Assembly: GCA_000002445.1 (NCBI GenBank)
Contig: CM000208.1
Location: 800,001-864,000 of the forward strand
Length of the DNA: 64,000 bases
Direction: 5' to 3'
Source of the DNA: Trypanosoma brucei
Taxonomy: Eukaryota
Both the position numbers and the translations under genes were made by a program. This document shows, piece by piece, positions 28,558 to 42,697 of the stretch (position 1 is its first letter; every line of letters begins with the position of its first letter). Under the pieces are notes generated by a model. It searched no databases, was not told the origin of the DNA, and saw only the letters and a program-made list of their open reading frames with translations.

Positions 28558-29301
28558 ATGTATCAAGACCGTTGCATATTTTTCTCCAAAATGGGGGCCT
28601 GTCGGCATGGGGACGGCTGCACGAAGGTTCATGTCCGGCCAACCACCTCGCCGACAGTTCTTTTTCCCTTCATGTACCCGAACCCCGCGGCTATTGAGCA
28701 CATTCAGGATAGGGAATGGAATTTTCACTTTGAAAGGAAGTATTTGAGGCGGCATTTTGAGCACTTTTACAAGGAGACGTGGCGGACGTTTATGGAACTT
28801 GGACGGATTGCTGAGCTGCGCGTTGTGAGCAACCTCGGAGACCATTTGCTTGGCAACGTTTATATCCGCTTTGAAGATAGTCACGATGCCTCTCGCATCG
28901 TACGGGAACTAAAGGCGAAGAAATTGAACGACATTGTTCTGTTGCCGGAGCTGAGTCCTGTAACAAACTTTGCTGAGGCTTGCTGTAAGGAGGACCTGGA
29001 GGGTAAATGCGAACGCGGACCGCAGTGTAATTACCTGCACATCATGAAGGTGTCTCGGAAATTAATGGAGAAGTTAGAAAAAGAGCAGGCTAAGTTTTGG
29101 AAAAAGAAGGAGAAGCACAGCAGCAGCAGCAGTAGCAGTCGCAAGAGGGAACGCTCAAAAGAACGTGGTGGAGAGCGCTCGAAGGAACGCTCGAAGGAGC
29201 GCGGGAGGGACAGGCAAAAGTCACCTCGGGGGTATTCCAGCGACATGTGCCATATTTGTGGAAAATCTGGTCACATCTCTCGCGAATGCCCCTTAAAATA
29301 A
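28558..29301 (+). CDS. U2AF35: U2 snRNP auxiliary factor small subunit U2AF35
   Basis: True ATG. N-terminal CCCH finger 'CIFFSKMGACRHGDGCTKVH' and central UHM/RRM-like 'GNVYIRFEDSHDASRIV' are present. Second CCCH 'CCKEDLEGKCERGPQCNYLH' is present. An SR/KER-like repeat 'SRKRERSKERGGERSKERSKERGRDR' is present. C-terminal CCHC knuckle 'CHICGKSGHISRECP' is present. Confidence 0.85.
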   Translation: MYQDRCIFFSKMGACRHGDGCTKVHVRPTTSPTVLFPFMYPNPAAIEHIQDREWNFHFERKYLRRHFEHFYKETWRTFMELGRIAELRVVSNLGDHLLGNVYIRFEDSHDASRIVRELKAKKLNDIVLLPELSPVTNFAEACCKEDLEGKCERGPQCNYLHIMKVSRKLMEKLEKEQAKFWKKKEKHSSSSSSSRKRERSKERGGERSKERSKERGRDRQKSPRGYSSDMCHICGKSGHISRECPLK

Positions 29302-30607: not shown

Positions 30608-32293
30608 ATGCTTCGCCGTACGTTGCCTTTTGCGTTTGCCTTCGTTAAGTCACCCCCTGCGGTGAATGAGCGAATGGATTCGTTTCAACCGGGTTCGGAC
30701 TCTGCTCGTGGAACGTTGGAAGCGTGTAAGCGCCTGCGTTGTGGTGCTACTGATTGCCCAATAGTTATTGGTGGGAAGGAATACCGCACTGATAACGCCA
30801 TCAACCGCATGATTCCATCTAGTCACCAACAGCAGGTTGCGAAGGGGTATAACGCAACACCGGAGTTGGCACAAAAGGCTATTGACACAGCACTGGGTGC
30901 CGCCAAGGAGTGGAGTCAGATGCCCTTTAAAGATCGGGCGGCAATATTTCTGCACGCGGCACATCTTATCTCGACGAAATATCGTCACGAATTGCGTGCA
31001 GCCACGATGCTCGGGCAGAGCAAGAATCCCTTCCAGGCAGAAATTGATGTGATTGCTGAATCGTGCGACTTCCTTCGATTTTCGGTGAAGTACGCCGAGG
31101 AGTTGTACAATCAGCAGCCGATCTCTCCCGCAAGTGGTCCGGTTTGGAACGCTCTTGATTACCGACCACTTGAGGGGTTCGTATCCGTCATTGCGCCCTT
31201 TAACTTTTCGGCAATTGCAGCGAACCTTGTGGCATGCCCCGCACTAATGGGAAATGTGATCTTATGGAAGCCCTCACCCAATGCTGTGCTTTCAAACTAT
31301 CTTTTGTACAAGGTGTTTGAGGAGGCGGGGCTTCCCGCGGGCGTGGTGAACTTCATGCCATGTGAACCAAAGGTAATGACTGAGGTTGTTAATTCTCATC
31401 CCGAGCTTGCTGGCGTCGCCTTTACTGGCTCCACGAACGTCTTCCTCTCTATCAACAAACAGATCTACTCCCGCTTGGAGGAGTACCGCAACATCCCGCG
31501 CATCAGCGGCGAAACAGGTGGAAAGGACTTTCACCTCATCCACCCGACGGCTGATATGAAAATGACAGCTGCTCTGACGGTGCGCGGCGCGTTTGAGTAT
31601 CAGGGTCAGAAATGTAGCGCCACATCACGGATTTACGTGCCGCAGAGTCGGTGGGAGGAGCTAAAGGGGTACTTGTTGGAACTGCATGGGAAGCTGAAGA
31701 TGGGCCAACCCGATGACTTCCAGAGTTTCATGTGCGCTGTTATCGATGAGACTGCATTCGACCGAAACAAGAAGTACATTGACATTGCCAAGGCGGATTC
31801 CAGTGCCTACACCATCATTGCTGGTGGTGGCTGTGATAAGTCGGAGGGGTGGTTTATTCAACCTACCATTATTGTGGCTAAGGACCCCAACGCACAGCTT
31901 CTGCGTGAGGAGATCTTTGGACCCATACTAACAGTGCATGTGTATGATGACAGCAAGCCAGATTTCTGGTCAGAGGCATGCAACCTTGTAAACAACGCAA
32001 CAAAGTATGCTCTAACCGGCAGCATTTTTGCGCAGGACCGCAAGGCGATACGCGATGCGACGGAAAAACATTTGCGCTACGCTGCTGGCAATTATTATAT
32101 CAACGACAAGTGTACGGGGGCGGTTGTCGGGCAACAGCCATTTGGAGGCGCGCGTGCAAGCGGTTCCAACGACAAACCGGGAAGTGCTCTCTTTTTAACG
32201 CGGTGGGTGTCGGCGCGGACCATAAAGGAGAATTTTGACCACAGTGCCCAAGTTTCTTACCCTCATCAGCTACCCGACTACGTGACTCTGTGA
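30608..32293 (+). CDS. P5CDH: Delta-1-pyrroline-5-carboxylate dehydrogenase (ALDH4 family), mitochondrial proline catabolism
   Basis: True ATG. The ALDH fold carries the P5CDH-specific catalytic region 'EYQGQKCSATSRIYV', general base 'GETGGKDFHLI' and NAD-binding 'FTGSTNVF'. Length (560 aa) and 'FGGARASGSNDKPG' are typical of ALDH4A1 orthologues. Confidence 0.9.
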   Translation: MLRRTLPFAFAFVKSPPAVNERMDSFQPGSDSARGTLEACKRLRCGATDCPIVIGGKEYRTDNAINRMIPSSHQQQVAKGYNATPELAQKAIDTALGAAKEWSQMPFKDRAAIFLHAAHLISTKYRHELRAATMLGQSKNPFQAEIDVIAESCDFLRFSVKYAEELYNQQPISPASGPVWNALDYRPLEGFVSVIAPFNFSAIAANLVACPALMGNVILWKPSPNAVLSNYLLYKVFEEAGLPAGVVNFMPCEPKVMTEVVNSHPELAGVAFTGSTNVFLSINKQIYSRLEEYRNIPRISGETGGKDFHLIHPTADMKMTAALTVRGAFEYQGQKCSATSRIYVPQSRWEELKGYLLELHGKLKMGQPDDFQSFMCAVIDETAFDRNKKYIDIAKADSSAYTIIAGGGCDKSEGWFIQPTIIVAKDPNAQLLREEIFGPILTVHVYDDSKPDFWSEACNLVNNATKYALTGSIFAQDRKAIRDATEKHLRYAAGNYYINDKCTGAVVGQQPFGGARASGSNDKPGSALFLTRWVSARTIKENFDHSAQVSYPHQLPDYVTL

Positions 32294-34441: not shown

Positions 34442-36722
34442 AGGCTTATGTGTGTATATATGCGTGTATATACTCATACGTGTTATTGATAATGATTTTC
34501 CTCTTTTAGTTGTTGCTTTCGCTTAGTGCTGGGTTGGTGGTCAAGGTATTTAACCGTCCGCTCTCGCAGATATTTTTGTTTTTATTTTCAAAGCTGCTAT
34601 GATGTTATTTTTTTTTTTTACCATGTATATATGTATATTTATATCTTCTGTGTTTCTTGCGTCTAAAGCACTCTTTCTCAAACGATATTTTTATTCCCTG
34701 CGCGCATCGTCATTGGTATAATGCTTTCCTTCATTTAGCCTCGGATACTATTGTTTATGAGCACGTGGCAGTATCTTTTTTTTTTTTTACAAAAAGAAAA
34801 AGAAAAAGAGAAAGCAAAGAGATGGTTGGAAGAGAAGGGGAGTAAAAGGGTGTAGAGAGAGAGAAAGAGAGAAATGGACCGAGACTATTAGTTATAATCA
34901 GATGGAGAATTTATTTCATCCTTTTTTTTCTCATTTTTGTACCCCTTCCTGAATGTTATCTTCTAGTCAATGTTTTTTTTTATACAAATATATATATATA
35001 TATATGTATTTATATACGCTTATTTTTACTTTATTTTTCTTTTTGCTAGAATCTTTATTATTATTATTTGTGATTTTATGATGTGTGTCGTTTTTTCTTC
35101 TTTTCTTTTTGCATTTCAGTCGCTATCTTTTCCACGCGGTGGTGTTTGTACATTTTTGTCTGGTGATGCTAAAATACTGAGAATATTTTGTACAACTCGT
35201 CGCCACTCAAAGCTTCATCATGTGTATTGCAATTATTATTTATGCTTTGTCACGCTCTTTTATTATTATTATTCCCACACTATATTAATAAAGAAAAACG
35301 ATTATTTGTTTCTTTTTTTTTAAAAAAAAGCGGAAAAAAAGACAGTTTTTGCGTGCGTTTCCCTTTTTTTTGTTGTTGTTGTTGCTTTGTCATATCATTT
35401 TTTTTGACTACCCTCATTTTTTTTTATTTCTTCTGTTGTATGAGTGAGACAGAGGAGGGTAGTTGTTGCTCTTTTTTGTTTTTTTTCGTTTTCCCTTTCA
35501 CGTGTTGTTATACCTTTCAAGTCCTTTTTTCTTTTTTTTTTTTTAAAGGATAATAAAGGATTTGAGATGATGCTATTTGTATATATTTTCGTATTTGTCT
35601 TCTGTTTTTTTTTCTTTTCAGTTGCTTCAGGGAAGTTCCCCGGATGTGACTGCTGGATTTTCGTCGTAGTCTTTATTATTCCTTTTCCTTTTTCCTCATT
35701 TCCATCCTTCTGTCTCGCAGCATCGGTGATTTAAAAAAAAAAAAGAAATAGCAACCGATAAGTTATGGTGTGAGGGAGATTAGTTAGTGATGGAATGGGG
35801 ACGGGATGTGTTGGAGAAGTGATAATAATAAAAGAAAGAGATTAAATTTAATAAATACAAAAAAAAAAGCGACGGTGCAAGTGTATTCATGTAAAAGTAA
35901 TCCGTATCGCTGTTGGAGACAATATTCTCACCTTTTTTGTCTCCCTTCTTTTTTTTTAAAAAAAAAAACAATATGCTTTAACCATATTCCCACTAAATCA
36001 ATGACTAACTGACTACCTGTTTGTTTCCTCCTCATTTTTGCTATACGCATGTTTCCCTTCTTTTCTTTTCTCTTTTCCTTTCCTTTTTGTTTTGATTTAT
36101 TCTCTACTCACCATTCAGGTTCTTTGCATATAGATGTTCATATAAGGAATCTGATATGTGGTCAGGTAATTTTGACTAATGGTAGTAACATCCACATTTT
36201 ATGGACTCTTTCTTAATTATTTTTTTCTTTAAATAGTTTAACTACTCTGCGAGTGGACATTGCGAGAATTATTGAACCCTTGGCTAATAGATATATATTA
36301 TATGTATAAATAATATATATATATATATAATATATATTCATGTAATTTGTTTCGCCTGTGTGTTGCACTGGTACAGACCACCATAACTGATGTTACTACT
36401 AATGACAGTATTATTGTTGTCTCTACCTGCCACCTTTTTTTCTTTCTTTTTTTTTAAATACATTTTTTTTTTCCTGCACAGTCTTTTGACTCACGCGGAT
36501 ACGTGGTGAGGCATACAAGAGGAAGTTTTTTTTTTTAAAAAAAAGGGAGGAGGAAACTTGGAAGACGAAGGAAGGAGCTAAGAGTAGGCGAGGGAAGTAG
36601 AATTTGAGGCGTGTACGTATATTTGTGTGTGACAATAATAACATCGATATAAAAGGAAAACGAGTTGGAAACGGTTACGAGTAGGTTGACAGGAACAGGC
36701 GGAGGTCAAGTGATTAAGCTGT

Positions 36723-36751
36723 GTTTTTTTTTTTTTACACGCAACATAATA
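36723..36751 (+). promoter_or_regulatory. T16 poly-pyrimidine run immediately 5' of the kinase ATG
   Basis: 'gtgtttttttttttttttacacgcaacataata' precedes ATG 36752. The GTG/TTG-initiated extension in the ORF track spans this tract. Confidence 0.4.
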
Positions 36752-37873
36752 ATGAACAGTAATGCTCCGCTTATCTTTGATGTGCCTCCTGTGTTTAAGG
36801 TGGAGTCCATAATTGGGCAAGGCTCATACGGTGTGGTTTGCAAGGCGTTGTATGGAATTGATCAAATTGCCATCAAGAAAATACCGAACTACACGAAAAG
36901 TGACGAGACCGCGCGGCGTGTGTTACGTGAAATAGAAATTTTACAGAACTTACAGTTCTGCGAGCAGGTCGTAGAGTGCCGACTTCTTTTTCGGCCGACT
37001 AGTCGTGAAAAGGATGTGTATGTCGTAATGAACTTTCTTCCTTCTGACCTCTCCTCCGTTATCAAGAACAAATCCGTCCCGCTCAATGAGAAAATTATCT
37101 GCTACATTACATGTCAACTTTTACTAGCTCTTCGTGCCATGCACCGCTGTAATGTACTTCACCGTGACTTGTCTCCACGTAACATCCTCGTCAATCACGA
37201 TTCGCAGGTATTTGTGTGTGATTTCGGTCTCAGTCGTTTCTTTGATCCCGACGAGCAATTGTCATTTGGTGTTGTAACGCAGTGGTATCGGGCGCCAGAG
37301 ATTATTTTGGATGCCGAGTACGACGCTGCCAATGATATTTGGGGCGTTGGCGTTATCGTGTGTGAGTTGGTGCTCAGACGTCATCTTTTCCCTGGAAAGT
37401 GGAACGACTCTGCGGATCAACTTAATCACATCTTCCACCTTGTTGGCACCCCGCCAGCATCTGTGTTTGAGCAGGGGCAACCGTTTGCTAGGGCTTCTGC
37501 GAATGCAAGAAAATATGCTCTTTCTGTTGTGGAGAAGAAACCGTGCTCTCCGATGTTGCAGGAGTTGCTGAGAAGTTCACCACTTTTTCAGAGCAATGAG
37601 GTGGAGTCGCATTCGGTGATTGACCTTGCCGTAAAGCTTCTTTCATTTAACCCACGTGACAGACCGACAGCTGATGATGCGTTGCGTCACCCATGGTTTG
37701 ATCAGTTTCGCTCCTTCATTGGTGAAATGATTGAGACTCAGGACGGTCACGGTGTGGGGACTATGCAACTTTCAGCCTGTGGTACACTTCCTGTGGAGGA
37801 TGTGGTGAAGAGGATCGAGGAACTCGTTCCAATTTTCTCACAAGACCTACTAGTTAGCGATGATGAGGATTGA
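36752..37873 (+). CDS. CMGC-group (MAPK/CDK-like) serine/threonine protein kinase with a non-canonical catalytic loop
   Basis: Track start 36665 is TTG. The first ATG, 36752, follows a T16 tract. Gly-loop 'IGQGSYGVVCKA', 'IAIKKI', catalytic loop 'HRDLSPRNILV', 'VCDFGLSRFF', and 'QWYRAPEIIL' (CMGC-type) and 'DIWGVGVIVCEL' are present. No TxY dual-phosphorylation motif. Confidence 0.8.
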   Translation: MNSNAPLIFDVPPVFKVESIIGQGSYGVVCKALYGIDQIAIKKIPNYTKSDETARRVLREIEILQNLQFCEQVVECRLLFRPTSREKDVYVVMNFLPSDLSSVIKNKSVPLNEKIICYITCQLLLALRAMHRCNVLHRDLSPRNILVNHDSQVFVCDFGLSRFFDPDEQLSFGVVTQWYRAPEIILDAEYDAANDIWGVGVIVCELVLRRHLFPGKWNDSADQLNHIFHLVGTPPASVFEQGQPFARASANARKYALSVVEKKPCSPMLQELLRSSPLFQSNEVESHSVIDLAVKLLSFNPRDRPTADDALRHPWFDQFRSFIGEMIETQDGHGVGTMQLSACGTLPVEDVVKRIEELVPIFSQDLLVSDDED

Positions 37874-39079: not shown

Positions 39080-40003
39080 ATGCGATGTAGTTGCGCTTTT
39101 CTTGATAAGTCCGTGTTTGCGGCGAAGCGGCGTGTAATTGTGCCTATCCACCCGACACCGAACTTTCCTGCACATTTCATCAAATCAGCCTTCACAACAG
39201 ACCCGTTGAAGGAAAAGCAGAAGGCGCGTTTTTCCTCCGGTGGTGAGGCCATGCGTGAGGTTCAGGATATTCCCAAGAACCTCGAGGGTGAGCGATCAAG
39301 GCGGGACCTGGCCAGTCGCGGCGACACCGAGTTCCAAGCTCTTGTGGAATTCATAGAAGGTGCTTCATACGATCAACTTATCTCGGGGCGACGGTTTAAA
39401 AAGGTATATGACGTTTTATCGGAAAATGATGACATGTTCATTTGGTTGTGTCACACGGCAATGTCTGTCCTGAACCCAGGCGACATGCGGTCTCGCTTGA
39501 TATATAACCATCTGCGCATACTGGCAGAATCTGTCGCAAGTGGTGAGATGACTCAACGGACGGCGTTTCGCTTCTTTGAATCGGCAGTGCGCAGCCCAGC
39601 TTACCGTGAAATCGCAAAGCGGCAGCTCGAAGGTGGAGCGGCAACGCGACTCGCTGGCATTTCTGCAGCAGCAGACGTGATGCGACGAATGGGTCTTACA
39701 CGGCGGCCTATGTCATCATACTTTGAGTTGTATCAGCGGATTGTGGAGCGCTCCGAAGCCATGACACCGTGGGGATTTCCTCCATTGTTTCAATTTGAGG
39801 AGCGACTGTCGCTGGAGCCGCGGTTAAAGTTTTTCTCCCGTGCATCGCAACAATCACTTGAGCGGCGGCGGCGGGGGCATGTGATGACACCACACACAGC
39901 ACTTCACGGGCGACGCATATTCTGGATTCCACCCACGTGGAATCGTGCCGGTCGGTTCCTTGGCCCCCATGTGACACTTTACCCGGGAATGACTCCAGAT
40001 TGA
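39080..40003 (+). CDS. Conserved hypothetical protein (307 aa)
   Basis: True ATG. Uninterrupted + strand ORF, predicted helical, no recognisable domain. Confidence 0.5.
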   Translation: MRCSCAFLDKSVFAAKRRVIVPIHPTPNFPAHFIKSAFTTDPLKEKQKARFSSGGEAMREVQDIPKNLEGERSRRDLASRGDTEFQALVEFIEGASYDQLISGRRFKKVYDVLSENDDMFIWLCHTAMSVLNPGDMRSRLIYNHLRILAESVASGEMTQRTAFRFFESAVRSPAYREIAKRQLEGGAATRLAGISAAADVMRRMGLTRRPMSSYFELYQRIVERSEAMTPWGFPPLFQFEERLSLEPRLKFFSRASQQSLERRRRGHVMTPHTALHGRRIFWIPPTWNRAGRFLGPHVTLYPGMTPD

Positions 40004-40585: not shown

Positions 40586-42697
40586 ATGGGTGGCTGCGTT
40601 GCATCCCTTATTGAGAGCAGAAACACAAAATCTCTTGTCGATAACGATGACATTCTGCAATACAACAAACTGCCATGCCAAATCCGTGTAGTTGCGGGAA
40701 CAGAACGGGAGGATGCATCACCGGTCTACCGTAAGTTTGACGTTACTGATGAGGATTTCGAAAAGATGTCACATGATGCGTACCATGGGGAGCCACTAAT
40801 ACAACTAATCCGTGAGATTTGTGGGCTACGGGGGGAGAAGGTTGCAATGGCCTACCGCAATATGCAGCGGGTAGAGAGAAATGTGGTGAAGGATGCGAGC
40901 GGCAAGTCAAAAACGATGGATATGTATGTTTTCTCACCGGGGCGCCGAAATATAAGCTATAAGCAGCTTTGGGAAACCGTCGAAAATTTTTCTAAAGGTC
41001 TCTGTGAAATTGGGCTTCAGGAGCGACAATGCCTTGCTCTGTTTGAAGAGACGCGTTGGGAGTGGTATGCGTCGTTGCTTTCCGCCTGGTGCCACAACAT
41101 GATTGTGGCAACAGTGTACGCCAATCTGGGTGAGGATGCACTCCGTTACGCGTTAAGGGAAGCTCAATGCGGCTGCATCATCTGTAACGGGAAGAATGTC
41201 CCCGTACTCCTTGACAAAGTGAAGTTGAAAGAAATGGGAAATCCAGTGGTTATTTACTTGGATGATTTACCCACTAACGTAGATATTATGGACCTAAGGG
41301 TGTACAAATGGTCTACCGTGGTGGAGATGGGTGCGAAGAGCGAAAAGGCTCAGTTAAACATCCCAACTTGTGAAAATTGTGATGATACCGCTCTTATCAT
41401 GTACACAAGCGGCACTACGGGGGATCCAAAGGGTGTAGTGCACACACACGGAAGCCTTGCTAGTGGCGTCTATGCGCTCAGCATTCGACTGTCCGAAGTA
41501 TTTGGTGACCCACGAGATGACGAAACGTACTGCTCGTACCTTCCTTTGGCCCACATTATGGAACTGGCTGTGCTGTCAATCCTTATGCTCAGGGGATGCC
41601 TCATTGGTTTCGGTTCTCCTCGAACAATTACCAACACTTTTTCTAAACCACACGGTGATTTGGTCGAATATCGACCGTTTGTTCTCTCTGCTGTCCCGCG
41701 TGTGTTCGATACCATTAAAAAAAATGTTGAGGCAATGCTACCCAGTCCCGGGTCAATAAAGCGTACAGTCTTTGAAAGGGGATATCAGGCCCGTCTCAAG
41801 GCTCTGAGGGATGGGAAGGAGACTCCCTACCTCAATGAAAAAGTTTTCAATAAGGTCCGTCAGGCAACAGGTGGGAATGTGCGGCTTTACTTTTCTGGTG
41901 GGGCGCCACTGTCTCCAGCTACTCAGGAGTTCATCAACGTGGTACTGGGGACTGTTATTCAGGGTTGGGGCCTAACGGAGACTGTGTGTTGTGGAGGGAC
42001 TCAGTTCCCAGGCAGCCTCGAGTCCGAAAGTATTGGTCGGATGATCGACACTGTGGAGTTGCGCCTTCTCGACACTCCCGAATATCGGCATACGGATAAA
42101 CCAGAACCTCGTGGAGAAATTTTGTTGCGCGGGCCATTCCTCTTTAAAGAGTATTACAAACAGAAGGCCCTGACGGAGGAGGTTATTGATTCCGAGGGAT
42201 GGTTCCACACGGGTGATGTTGGCTGCGTTTCGAAAAACGGTACCTTGCGCATCATTGGTCGCGTGAAGGCCCTTGTAAAGAATTCCAACGGCGAGTATTT
42301 GGCTTTGGAGTCCTTGGAGGCCACTTACGGGCAAAACAAGTTGTGCACACCAAACGGCGTGTGTGTGCTCGTTCATCCACAGCGCAGTTATATAGCTGCA
42401 CTGGCCCTCACAACAGAGCAACTTATCATGCCCTTCGCAAAGGAGCATAAAATCCGCGGAACATATCCCGAGATACTCGAAAATGTTGAACTCCGCAAGA
42501 AGGTGTGTGAATCATTTCAAGAAACTGGAAGGGCCGCTGGAAAGAAAAGCTTCGAAATTGTGCGGGACGTGCGCCTACTGAGTGATGAATGGACCCCAGA
42601 AAATGGGGTTCTAACAGCGGCCGCCAAGTTGAAGAGGCGAATCATTGATGAACGTTACAAAGAACTGATCGAAGAGATATTCCGCAATGATGTTTGA
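40586..42697 (+). CDS. Long-chain fatty acyl-CoA synthetase (ANL superfamily), with an N-terminal MGGC acylation signal
   Basis: True ATG. AMP-binding motif 'YTSGTTGDPKGVVHTHGS', 'GWGLTET', 'WFHTGDVG', 'GRVKALVKNSNGEYL' and C-terminal 'AAAKLKRRII' are typical of eukaryotic LACS. The N-terminus is 'MGGCVAS'. Confidence 0.85.
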   Translation: MGGCVASLIESRNTKSLVDNDDILQYNKLPCQIRVVAGTEREDASPVYRKFDVTDEDFEKMSHDAYHGEPLIQLIREICGLRGEKVAMAYRNMQRVERNVVKDASGKSKTMDMYVFSPGRRNISYKQLWETVENFSKGLCEIGLQERQCLALFEETRWEWYASLLSAWCHNMIVATVYANLGEDALRYALREAQCGCIICNGKNVPVLLDKVKLKEMGNPVVIYLDDLPTNVDIMDLRVYKWSTVVEMGAKSEKAQLNIPTCENCDDTALIMYTSGTTGDPKGVVHTHGSLASGVYALSIRLSEVFGDPRDDETYCSYLPLAHIMELAVLSILMLRGCLIGFGSPRTITNTFSKPHGDLVEYRPFVLSAVPRVFDTIKKNVEAMLPSPGSIKRTVFERGYQARLKALRDGKETPYLNEKVFNKVRQATGGNVRLYFSGGAPLSPATQEFINVVLGTVIQGWGLTETVCCGGTQFPGSLESESIGRMIDTVELRLLDTPEYRHTDKPEPRGEILLRGPFLFKEYYKQKALTEEVIDSEGWFHTGDVGCVSKNGTLRIIGRVKALVKNSNGEYLALESLEATYGQNKLCTPNGVCVLVHPQRSYIAALALTTEQLIMPFAKEHKIRGTYPEILENVELRKKVCESFQETGRAAGKKSFEIVRDVRLLSDEWTPENGVLTAAAKLKRRIIDERYKELIEEIFRNDV

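What the first reader, a model, noticed from the sequence alone, without database searches (positions are those of the whole stretch)
36752..37873. CMGC/MAPK-like kinase lacking the catalytic-loop lysine (HRDLSPRN) and the TxY motif
The kinase is otherwise canonical (GxGxxG, VAIK-like 'IAIKK', DFG, 'WYRAPE'). The conserved lysine of HRDLKPxN, which contacts the ATP gamma-phosphate, is serine ('HRDLSPRN'). The activation segment has no TEY/TDY-type dual phosphorylation site ('EQLSFGVVTQWYRAPE'). This suggests an unusual phospho-transfer or regulatory mechanism, or reduced activity.
Basis: seen in the sequence. Interest (0 to 1): 0.5.

Follow-up and report, generated by a model that had tools for sequence, protein, structure and literature searches.

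The report
MAPK-like kinase with relocated catalytic charge
This Trypanosoma brucei gene (Tb927.10.3230) encodes a MAP-kinase-like enzyme whose normally essential catalytic-loop lysine is serine, always with an arginine two residues later as in tyrosine kinases, and this has been conserved across its whole clade, so it is most likely an active but unusually wired and unusually regulated kinase.

Summary
The 373-aa ORF at 36752-37873 (+) has every canonical kinase motif, but reads HRDLSPRN (Ser141, codon TCT) and L-S-F-G where MAPKs have T-x-Y.

The gene is T. brucei Tb927.10.3230 (old ID Tb10.70.4250). Published RNAi primers match the window exactly. Kinome catalogues already list it as a CMGC/MAPK that 'lacks MAPK regulatory sequences'.

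- **Arg143.** K->S never occurs alone. All 57 best unfiltered homologues have H-R-D-x-[S/T]-x-R-N, while nearly all canonical MAPKs scanned (every listed hit below the clade in the first search) have HRDLKPxN. This is the tyrosine-kinase arrangement (HRDLAARN/HRDLATRN).
- **Ser171.** S-F-G aligns without gaps to T-E-Y, so an invariant Ser sits at the primary activation-loop phospho-acceptor position. The basic residues that bind pThr in ERK2 are kept. One residue of the pTyr pocket is lost (Arg189->Gln177).

All other catalytic residues are invariant across 70 clade members, down to 32% identity.

Best reading: an active atypical MAPK. Arg143 replaces the lysine's charge, and a single Ser is the activation switch, resembling ERK3/4 by convergence.

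Nothing here tests activity or specificity. Knock-down or knock-out phenotypes reported so far are null. Moderate interest.

The parts
36752..37873 (+). CDS of the MAPK-like kinase, 373 aa plus stop. It is T. brucei Tb927.10.3230 (old ID Tb10.70.4250; UniProt Q38BS3).
   Evidence: ORF and translation. 100% identical to the T. brucei/T. equiperdum protein. Pfam Pkinase 2.3e-55. Q38BS3 linked to Tb927.10.3230.
36973..37448 (+). Amplicon of the published Tb927.10.3230 RNAi construct (primers TLO189/TLO190, Jones 2014). It fixes the gene identity.
   Evidence: Primer sequences from PMC3894213 suppl. file 6. Each matches the window exactly once.
36815..36832 (+). Glycine-rich loop GQGSYG (residues 22-27).
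   Evidence: G22/G24/G27 conserved in 68/70 clade members.
36875..36877 (+). Lys42 of the IAIK motif (beta3 lysine). Its partner Glu60 is at 36929-36931.
   Evidence: K42 and E60 are 70/70 in the clade.
37160..37183 (+). Catalytic loop H137-R-D-L-S141-P-R143-N144. Ser141 is TCT at 37172-37174 and Arg143 is CGT at 37178-37180.
   Evidence: Gapless alignment to ERK2 HRDLKPSN. H-R-D-x-[S/T]-x-R-N in all 57 top hits. Matches the Tyr-kinase active-site pattern and not the Ser/Thr pattern (patterns written from memory).
37220..37300 (+). Activation segment D157-F-G ... A-P-E183: DFGLSRFFDPDEQLSFGVVTQWYRAPE. It is the most conserved stretch of the protein.
   Evidence: AF2 gives it low confidence, residues 161-176 pLDDT <50.
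37262..37270 (+). S171-F172-G173, in register with T-E-Y of MAPKs. Ser171 is the inferred single activation-loop phospho-acceptor.
   Evidence: Alignment to ERK2 and MPK6. S171 is 70/70 and G173 is 68/70.
37280..37282 (+). Gln177 in VVTQWYRAPE, where canonical MAPKs have Arg (ERK2 Arg189, a pTyr185 ligand).
   Evidence: Q in all clade members, R in canonical MAPKs. The role of ERK2 R189 is from established knowledge.
37397..37423 (+). K216-WNDSADQL-224. This is a clade-specific two-residue insertion relative to ERK2 'KHYLDQL'.
37691..37870 (+). C-terminal extension after the kinase core (residues 314-373), with predicted helices 314-332 and 348-358. It is MAPK L16-like.
   Evidence: AF2 model. 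Foldseek alignments to ERK2/JNK1 span about 365 columns.
37856..37858 (+). Ser369 in LLVS*DDED, an experimentally observed phosphosite of Tb10.70.4250.
   Evidence: Nett 2009, PMC2716717. The residue number fits this 373-aa protein.

Best explanation
The gene encodes a catalytically competent, atypical MAP-kinase-like Ser/Thr kinase of a clade so far named only in kinetoplastids. Its unnamed environmental relatives are probably euglenozoan.

**Catalysis.** The positive charge that canonical kinases place on the catalytic-loop lysine (HRDLK) has moved two residues downstream to Arg143 (HRDLS-P-R-N). This is the arrangement of tyrosine kinases (HRDLAARN/HRDLATRN). LIM kinases are a partial precedent (HRDLNSHN). 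Phosphoryl transfer can therefore still proceed.

**Regulation.** It has shifted from MAP2K-type dual Thr/Tyr phosphorylation to a single switch at Ser171. This residue is in register with Thr of TxY, Thr160 of CDK2 and Ser189 of ERK3. It would be phosphorylated by a Ser/Thr kinase or by the enzyme itself, and read by the retained basic pocket (Arg56/Arg59 in helix C, Arg138 of HRD, Arg162 after DFG).

**Shown here:** the motifs, their register, their fixation, and the co-occurrence of S141, R143, S171-x-G and Q177.

**Inferred:** that Arg143 reaches the gamma-phosphate or catalytic Asp, that the enzyme is active, and that Ser171 is phosphorylated.
For: 1. **Linked traits.** All 57 best unfiltered homologues carry H-R-D-x-[S/T]-x-R-N together with S-x-G and VVTQWYR[A/S]PE. 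Two weaker hits further down that list (P0060, P0061, which belong to the divergent sister subfamily) also read HRDLSSRN. Every other listed hit below the clade carries HRDLKPxN, plus TxY wherever its activation loop could be parsed.
2. **Single origin.** A neighbour-joining tree puts the S..R sequences in one clade, apart from the K-containing MAPKs.
3. **Intact catalytic machinery.** In 70 clade members (median 54%, minimum 32% identity to the window protein), K42, E60, H137, R138, D139, R143, N144, D157-F-G, R162, S171, T176, P182, E183, D195 and R304 are 100% conserved. Mean column conservation is only 63%.
4. **MAPK fold.** The AF2 model has pLDDT 86 and pTM 0.88. Its best structural matches are ERK2, JNK1, p38 and Fus3 over about 365 columns.
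5. **TK-type loop.** The loop VLHRDLSPRNILV fits the classical Tyr-kinase active-site pattern and not the Ser/Thr pattern; controls behave as expected. A 43-aa query around the loop brings EGFR to rank 4 among PDB sequences.
6. **Literature.** The HRDLAARN Arg hydrogen-bonds the catalytic Asp and substrate hydroxyl, and its mutation abolishes activity (PMC4771162; PMC12206127). LIMK1 has HRDLNSHN in place of the HRDxKxxN consensus, and LIM kinases phosphorylate Ser/Thr as well as Tyr, which is attributed to that motif.
7. **Register of Ser171.** S-F-G aligns gaplessly to T-E-Y.
8. **Expression.** The protein is detected and phosphorylated at Ser369 in vivo. It is transiently up-regulated during differentiation.
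Against: - No enzymatic data exist for this protein or any orthologue in the literature I could search.
- Phospho-Ser171 was not listed in the one phosphoproteome table I could read. Only pSer369 was.
- Knock-down in bloodstream T. brucei and knock-out in L. mexicana promastigotes gave no phenotype. This gives no functional read-out and would also fit a weakly active protein.
- The 70-sequence conservation figures for R143 and Q177 are partly circular, because those motifs were used to pick the set. The unfiltered list is the independent support.
- The tree has no bootstrap support values.
Confidence: 0.55

Rival explanations
1. Low-activity kinase or pseudokinase. Without the catalytic-loop lysine, phosphoryl transfer is crippled. 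The protein would then act mainly as an ATP-binding scaffold, docking partner or allosteric regulator.
For: The HRDxK lysine is almost universal in Ser/Thr kinases. All 119 nearest relatives of one MAPK query keep it, as do the canonical MAPKs. No loss-of-fitness phenotype was seen in T. brucei bloodstream forms or L. mexicana promastigotes. AF2 leaves the activation loop disordered.
Against: Every other catalytic residue is invariant across 70 sequences down to 32% identity: K42, E60, D139, N144, DFG, APE and R304. Pseudokinases typically drift at several of these. The substitution is always paired with Arg at +2. That is the arrangement of fully active tyrosine kinases, and LIMK is an active kinase without the lysine.
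Confidence: 0.2
2. The enzyme is active, but Arg143 is mainly a substrate-specificity residue. It would recognise an acidic or phosphorylated residue near the phospho-acceptor, occupying the position of PKA Glu170, which reads P-2 Arg. Catalysis would proceed without any direct replacement of the lysine.
For: The +2 position faces the substrate in Ser/Thr kinases (established knowledge for PKA Glu170). Some K-containing MAPKs also carry R or K there (K..R 9 and K..K 13). Arg at +2 is therefore not by itself a sign of compensation.
Against: Within the clade, Ser141 and Arg143 are co-fixed with no exception among the 57 top hits. Among non-K catalytic loops in the wider hit list, most carry a basic residue at +2 (13 of 19, not phylogenetically independent).
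Confidence: 0.15
3. Tyrosine-directed or dual-specificity kinase. The small Ser plus distal Arg deepen the active site as in tyrosine kinases. This MAPK scaffold could then phosphorylate Tyr in organisms that lack conventional tyrosine kinases.
For: The loop matches the Tyr-kinase active-site signature and not the Ser/Thr one. It differs from TrkA-type HRDLATRN by one conservative change (consensus HRDLSTRN). LIMKs, with a non-Lys loop, are reported to phosphorylate Ser/Thr and Tyr. Trypanosomatids have Tyr phosphorylation but no TK or TKL group kinases (PMC1266030). Database GO terms include 'protein tyrosine kinase activity', which is almost certainly automatic.
Against: The P+1 loop is the Ser/Thr/CMGC type (VVT176QWYRAPE), with the conserved Thr and CMGC Arg, not the P-[IV]-[KR]-W-x-APE of tyrosine kinases. 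Overall similarity is to Pkinase (188 bits) and ERK2, not to tyrosine kinases. Known dual-specificity CMGC/STE kinases keep the lysine (own knowledge).
Confidence: 0.1
4. Artefact: a sequencing or assembly error, a strain-specific mutation, or a mis-registered alignment.
For: None found.
Against: TCT versus AAR differs at all three codon positions. Four independent Trypanozoon assemblies give the identical motif. It is fixed in all orthologues. There is no Lys within residues 115-215. The alignment to ERK2 is gapless here.
Confidence: 0.01

Closest known systems
Classical ERK-type MAP kinases (ERK1/2, plant MPK6, Fus3)
   Same: Best sequence match (ERK2 8.6e-53) and best structural matches. 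Same length class. MAPK insert and C-terminal extension are predicted. It is an RD kinase with the CMGC Arg in WYRAPE. The residues equivalent to ERK2 pThr183 ligands are retained (R56, R59, R138, R162).
   Different: HRDLSxRN instead of HRDLKPxN. S-F-G instead of T-x-Y. Gln instead of the pTyr-binding Arg189. The activation loop is 4 residues shorter than in ERK2. There is a two-residue insertion in 'PGKWNDSADQL'. It forms a separate clade.
Atypical MAPKs ERK3/ERK4 (S-E-G activation loop; own knowledge)
   Same: A single Ser phospho-acceptor followed by x-Gly, in register with TxY (L-S-x-G-[LV]-V-T-x-W-Y-R). A non-Arg residue follows the P+1 Thr. By analogy, activation would be by a non-MAP2K kinase.
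   Different: ERK3/4 keep HRDLKPxN and have SPR instead of APE. They are metazoan and have long C-terminal tails. ERK3 was not among the best 60 PDB sequences for the whole protein or for the activation segment. The resemblance is therefore convergent, not orthology.
Protein tyrosine kinase catalytic loop (HRDLAARN / HRDLATRN)
   Same: A small residue at the Lys position plus Arg two residues later. It matches the classical Tyr-kinase active-site pattern. The Arg is essential and contacts the catalytic Asp and substrate hydroxyl in tyrosine kinases.
   Different: Everything else is CMGC/Ser-Thr type: P+1 loop, overall sequence, MAPK insert and fold. No evidence for Tyr specificity.
LIM kinases / TESK (HRDLNSHN, HRDLTSKN)
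   Same: Active kinases that lack the catalytic-loop Lys and carry a basic residue at +2 (the TESK motif is from my own knowledge).
   Different: They belong to the TKL group, are unrelated in the rest of the domain, and have His or Lys rather than Arg.

Membership tests
CMGC group / MAPK family (broad sense) | Kinase domain most similar to MAPKs in sequence and fold | tested here: met
   Pfam Pkinase 2.3e-55. The best PDB sequences are all ERK1/2 or MPK6. Foldseek top hits are ERK2, JNK1, p38 and Fus3 with TM 0.7-0.8. Kinome papers classify it as CMGC/MAPK.
CMGC group / MAPK family (broad sense) | MAPK insert and C-terminal (L16-type) extension packing on the kinase core | tested here: met
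   AF2 helices at 236-274 (insert region), 314-332 and 348-358. Structural alignments to ERK2 span about 365 of 373 residues. Based on a predicted model only.
Conventional MAPK (MAP2K-activated) | T-x-Y dual phosphorylation motif in the activation loop | tested here: not met
   S171-F-G is in register with T-E-Y. This is fixed in the clade. Also noted as 'lack MAPK regulatory sequences' in PMC1266030.
Conventional MAPK (MAP2K-activated) | Catalytic loop HRDLKPxN with the gamma-phosphate-contacting Lys | tested here: not met
   HRDLSPRN in the window and H-R-D-x-[S/T]-x-R-N in all 57 orthologues.
Conventional MAPK (MAP2K-activated) | Activation by a dual-specificity STE7 MAP2K; proline-directed substrate specificity | not testable with these tools
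   Needs biochemistry.
Atypical MAPKs of the ERK3/4 type | Single Ser in an S-x-G activation-loop motif | tested here: met
   S171-F172-G173. S is 70/70 and G is 68/70.
Atypical MAPKs of the ERK3/4 type | Orthology or closest similarity to ERK3/4 (SPR instead of APE, long C-terminal tail) | tested here: not met
   APE is retained. ERK3 is absent from the best 60 PDB matches. The clade contains only kinetoplastid and unnamed environmental sequences.
Protein tyrosine kinases | Catalytic loop HRDL[AR]A[AR]N-type (Tyr-kinase active-site signature) | tested here: met
   VLHRDLSPRNILV matches the Tyr pattern and not the Ser/Thr pattern. ERK2, IRK, TrkA and Src controls behave as expected (patterns written from memory).
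Protein tyrosine kinases | P+1 loop P-[IV]-[KR]-W-x-APE and overall TK-group similarity | tested here: not met
   The P+1 loop is VVTQWYRAPE. Pkinase scores 188 bits against 101 for PK_Tyr_Ser-Thr. The nearest relatives are MAPKs.
Pseudokinases | Loss of one or more of the beta3 Lys, HRD Asp or DFG Asp | tested here: not met
   K42, D139 and D157 are present and 70/70 conserved.

The most novel reading that the evidence does not exclude
The S-x-R catalytic loop is a convergent, tyrosine-kinase-like active site built on a MAPK scaffold. It would give this clade tyrosine or dual specificity. That would make it a dedicated source of phosphotyrosine in organisms that have no TK or TKL kinases.
Probability: 0.1. 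Interest if true: 0.75.

Novelty: new variant of a known kind. Interest (0 to 1): 0.4.

Why it matters
**If Arg143 substitutes for the catalytic-loop lysine.** This clade would be a natural, anciently fixed example of the Ser/Thr-to-Tyr-kinase type of active-site rewiring occurring inside the CMGC group. It would be useful for understanding which catalytic-loop features are needed for phosphoryl transfer and which for phospho-acceptor choice.

**For trypanosomatid biology.** It defines a MAPK-like kinase that cannot be wired into a classical MAP2K cascade. It also carries a distinctive active site that host kinases of the same family lack, which could in principle be exploited for selective inhibition.

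**Limits on practical importance.** Reported knock-down and knock-out phenotypes are null in cultured bloodstream T. brucei and L. mexicana promastigotes. The only functional hint so far is transient up-regulation during differentiation.

Tried and rejected
- **Alignment shift or sequencing error: rejected.** The alignment to ERK2 is gapless, there is no Lys in residues 115-215, the codon differs from Lys at three bases, and independent assemblies give identical motifs.
- **Orthology with ERK3/4: rejected.** ERK3 is not among the top PDB matches.
- **Second trypanosomatid MAPK-like gene.** I asked whether the divergent S..R sister subfamily (P0060/61/185/207) is the other trypanosomatid MAPK-like gene without regulatory motifs (LmjF13.0780). 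A search with P0060 returned only environmental sequences and no named trypanosomatid, so the link is unsupported.
- **Independent K loss.** P0198 (HRDVTPRN with TEY) is a singleton. All 119 of its nearest relatives keep Lys, so it is weak support at best.
- **Arg143 geometry: not possible.** Model coordinates are not exposed to the scripting environment.
- **Taxonomy of environmental clade members: not obtained.** No names or DNA were available.
- **Literature.** Searches for the motif strings, the UniProt accession and the Leishmania gene IDs in main texts found nothing. One phosphoproteome paper was not held.
Full report
**1. What is in the sequence**

Window 36752-37873 (+) is an intact 373-codon ORF. 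It has a full-length Pfam protein-kinase domain (2.3e-55).

- GQGSYG (22-27)
- IAIKK (Lys42)
- Glu60
- HRDLSPRN (137-144)
- DFG (157-159)
- EQLSFGVVTQWYRAPE (168-183)

Ser141 is TCT at 37172-37174. It differs from either Lys codon at all three positions. There is no lysine between residues 115 and 215, so no register shift can restore it.

**2. Identity of the gene**

The protein is 100% identical to 'protein kinase, putative' of T. brucei TREU927 and T. equiperdum (XP_822575.1, UniProt Q38BS3).

The gene-specific parts of the RNAi primers published for Tb927.10.3230 (Jones et al. 2014, PMC3894213, suppl. file 6) each match the window once and exactly. They fall at 36973-36992 (+) and 37429-37448 (-). 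A proteome table links Tb927.10.3230 to Q38BS3 (PMC6907760).

The old identifier is Tb10.70.4250. Parsons et al. 2005 list it with LmjF03.0210 as CMGC/MAPK that 'lack MAPK regulatory sequences' and 'must be regulated in a distinct manner' (PMC1266030). I take Tb10.70.4250 and Tb927.10.3230 to be the same gene from converging evidence, not from an ID table:
- It is the only T. brucei MAPK-like gene without regulatory motifs.
- The Leishmania orthologues lie on contigs of about 375-390 kb, the size of chromosome 3 (the chromosome size is my own knowledge).
- The phosphosite reported for Tb10.70.4250, Ser369 (Nett 2009, PMC2716717), falls exactly on the Ser of the C-terminal LLVS-DDED in this 373-aa protein.
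- The L. mexicana tagging primer for LmxM.03.0210 encodes MQESNTLIFD (read from the primer by eye), which is the N-terminus of the Leishmania orthologue P0011.

**3. What is already known functionally**

- No loss of fitness on RNAi in bloodstream T. brucei, in either of two screens.
- LmxM.03.0210 is dispensable in L. mexicana promastigotes. It localises to the cytoplasm, nucleus and flagellum (PMC7902614 supplements).
- The protein is detected by mass spectrometry.
- It is transiently up-regulated during bloodstream-to-procyclic differentiation (PMC4765897).
- No paper in the searchable library contains the motif strings HRDLS[TPS]RN. I found no description of the catalytic-loop change.

**4. 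The substitution is fixed and is part of a linked set of changes**

In the unfiltered hit list of the homology search, the 57 best proteins cover Trypanosoma, Leishmania, Phytomonas, Porcisia, Novymonas, Angomonas and Strigomonas. They also include many unnamed metagenome and transcriptome sequences down to about 41% identity.

All 57 have H-R-D-x-[S/T]-x-R-N (56 Ser, 1 Thr). All 57 also have [LM]-S-x-G followed by VVTQWYR[A/S]PE. Two weaker hits further down the same list, P0060 and P0061, also read HRDLSSRN; they belong to the divergent sister subfamily described below. Every other listed hit below the clade is a canonical MAPK with HRDLKPxN, with T-x-Y and VxTRWYRAPE wherever its activation loop could be parsed (alignment).

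Four changes therefore travel together:
- Lys->Ser at the catalytic loop
- Ser/Gly->Arg two residues later
- TxY->SxG
- Arg->Gln after the P+1 Thr

A neighbour-joining tree (no bootstrap) places all S..R sequences in one clade. That clade includes a divergent, purely environmental sister subfamily (P0060, P0061, P0185, P0207). It is separate from the K-containing MAPKs.

Among canonical MAPKs the lysine is almost never lost. It is retained in 119 of 119 relatives of one query. The exceptions seen were a singleton with HRDVTPRN plus TEY (P0198) and a red-algal-type pair with HRDLNPxN.

**5. Signs of retained catalysis**

I aligned 70 distinct clade members (median 54%, minimum 32% identity to the window protein). 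The following are invariant, while mean column conservation is 63%:
- Lys42, Glu60
- His137-Arg138-Asp139, Arg143, Asn144
- Asp157-Phe-Gly, Arg162, Ser171, Thr176
- Pro182-Glu183, Asp195, Arg304

The set was chosen with a pattern that included [ST]x[RK] and TQWYR. The figures for Arg143 and Gln177 are therefore partly circular, and one search is the independent evidence for those two.

The AF2 model is confident (pLDDT 86, pTM 0.88), except in the activation loop at residues 161-176. It superposes on ERK2, JNK1, p38 and Fus3 over nearly the full length, including the C-terminal extension. This pattern is what one expects of an enzyme under selection for activity, not of a drifting pseudokinase.

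**6. Why Arg143 matters**

The consensus loop of the clade is HRDLSTRN (HRDLSPRN in T. brucei). It differs by one conservative change from the HRDLATRN/HRDLAARN loop that defines tyrosine kinases.

The window's VLHRDLSPRNILV matches the classical Tyr-kinase active-site pattern and fails the Ser/Thr pattern. ERK2, insulin receptor, TrkA and Src control strings behave as expected (the patterns were written from memory). A 43-residue query centred on the loop ranks EGFR fourth among all PDB sequences.

In tyrosine kinases that Arg hydrogen-bonds the catalytic Asp and the substrate hydroxyl, and it is required for activity (PMC4771162; PMC12206127). It is textbook knowledge that it takes over the role of PKA Lys168.

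LIM kinases give a second precedent. They have HRDLNSHN, are active, and reportedly phosphorylate Ser/Thr and Tyr.

I therefore infer that the charge has been relocated, not lost.

**7. The activation loop**

S171-F-G aligns to T-E-Y of ERK2, and gaplessly to plant MPK6. Ser171 therefore occupies the primary CMGC activation-loop phospho-acceptor position. By counting five residues before the conserved P+1 Thr, this is ERK2 Thr183 and CDK2 Thr160.

The ERK2 residues that bind pThr183 have conserved equivalents:

| ERK2 residue | Equivalent here | Conservation |
|---|---|---|
| Arg65 | Arg56 | R or K in 68/70 |
| Arg68 | Arg59 | 68/70 |
| Arg146 | Arg138 | 70/70 |
| Arg170 | Arg162 | 70/70 |
| Arg189 (pTyr185 ligand) | Gln177 | Gln in all clade members |

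The ERK2 contacts are from established structural knowledge of phospho-ERK2.

The most economical reading is a single-Ser switch, functionally like the S-E-G loop of ERK3/4. The resemblance is convergent: ERK3 is not among the closest solved relatives, and APE is retained. Phospho-Ser171 has not been reported in the one table I could read.

**8. Rivals**

- **Pseudokinase or weak-kinase scaffold** remains possible (about 0.2). No activity data exist and the phenotypes are null.
- **Arg143 as purely a specificity determinant** is possible (about 0.15).
- **Tyrosine or dual specificity** is the most novel reading (about 0.1). The loop favours it, but the Ser/Thr-type P+1 loop VVTQWYRAPE and the overall CMGC character argue against it.
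- **Artefact** is excluded.

**9. Verdict**

The gene and its lack of TxY are already catalogued.

The co-fixed Ser141/Arg143 tyrosine-kinase-type catalytic loop, and the invariant Ser171 with a retained phospho-binding pocket, appear to be undescribed. Together they point to an active, differently regulated MAPK variant, not a defective one.

This is a new variant of a known kind and of moderate interest. It can be tested directly with a handful of point mutants.

Noticed in passing
window 1-64000: All 20 ORFs of at least 250 aa lie on the + strand. This is one long polycistronic unit, as expected for a trypanosomatid chromosome core.
   Followed up: no
window 28558-29301, 30608-32293, 39080-40003, 40586-42697: Neighbouring ORFs are a CCCH/CCHC zinc-finger protein, an aldehyde-dehydrogenase-family enzyme (561 aa), a 307-aa ORF with no Pfam hit, and an AMP-binding (acyl-CoA-synthetase-like) enzyme. 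There is no obvious functional link to the kinase.
   Followed up: partly
window 36724-36760 and 36526-36550: A 13-T tract ends 15 nt before the ATG. The first AG after it (36758-36759) lies inside codon 3, so using it as a trans-splice acceptor would remove the start codon. An 11-T tract at 36526-36536, followed by several AGs, is the likelier acceptor for the full-length mRNA. Alternative splicing that yields an N-terminally truncated product is conceivable.
   Followed up: no
P0025 / P0039 (JGI sample 3300059473, 12.5-kb contig): Two members of the S..R clade sit in tandem on one environmental contig. All genes there are intronless and on the same strand, suggesting a lineage-specific duplication in an unidentified kinetoplastid-like organism.
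   Followed up: partly
P0060, P0061, P0185, P0207: This divergent environmental sister subfamily keeps HRDLSS[RK]N. P0060, P0061 and P0207 also keep an M-S-x-[G/R] V-I-T-Q-W-Y-R-A-P-E activation loop (no loop could be parsed for P0185). P0060 and P0061, the two sequences read, have no recognisable GxGxxG loop at the N-terminus. No named trypanosomatid member was found.
   Followed up: partly
P0198; P0186 / P0199 (Hildenbrandia rubra): These are other MAPKs that lost the catalytic-loop Lys. One is a singleton with HRDVTPRN but an intact TEY. The other is a red-algal-type pair with HRDLNPxN plus T[DN]Y and no basic residue at +2.
   Followed up: partly
window 37397-37423 (residues 216-224): There is a clade-specific two-residue insertion, 'KWNDSADQL', where ERK2 has 'KHYLDQL'. 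In ERK2 this stretch contributes to the F-site/DEF docking pocket (own knowledge), so docking interactions may also differ.
   Followed up: no
window 37175-37177 (Pro142): Only the T. brucei group has Pro at the middle position (HRDLSPRN, 3 of 70). Other clade members have Thr, Ser or Cys. Pro is the canonical MAPK residue at this position.
   Followed up: no
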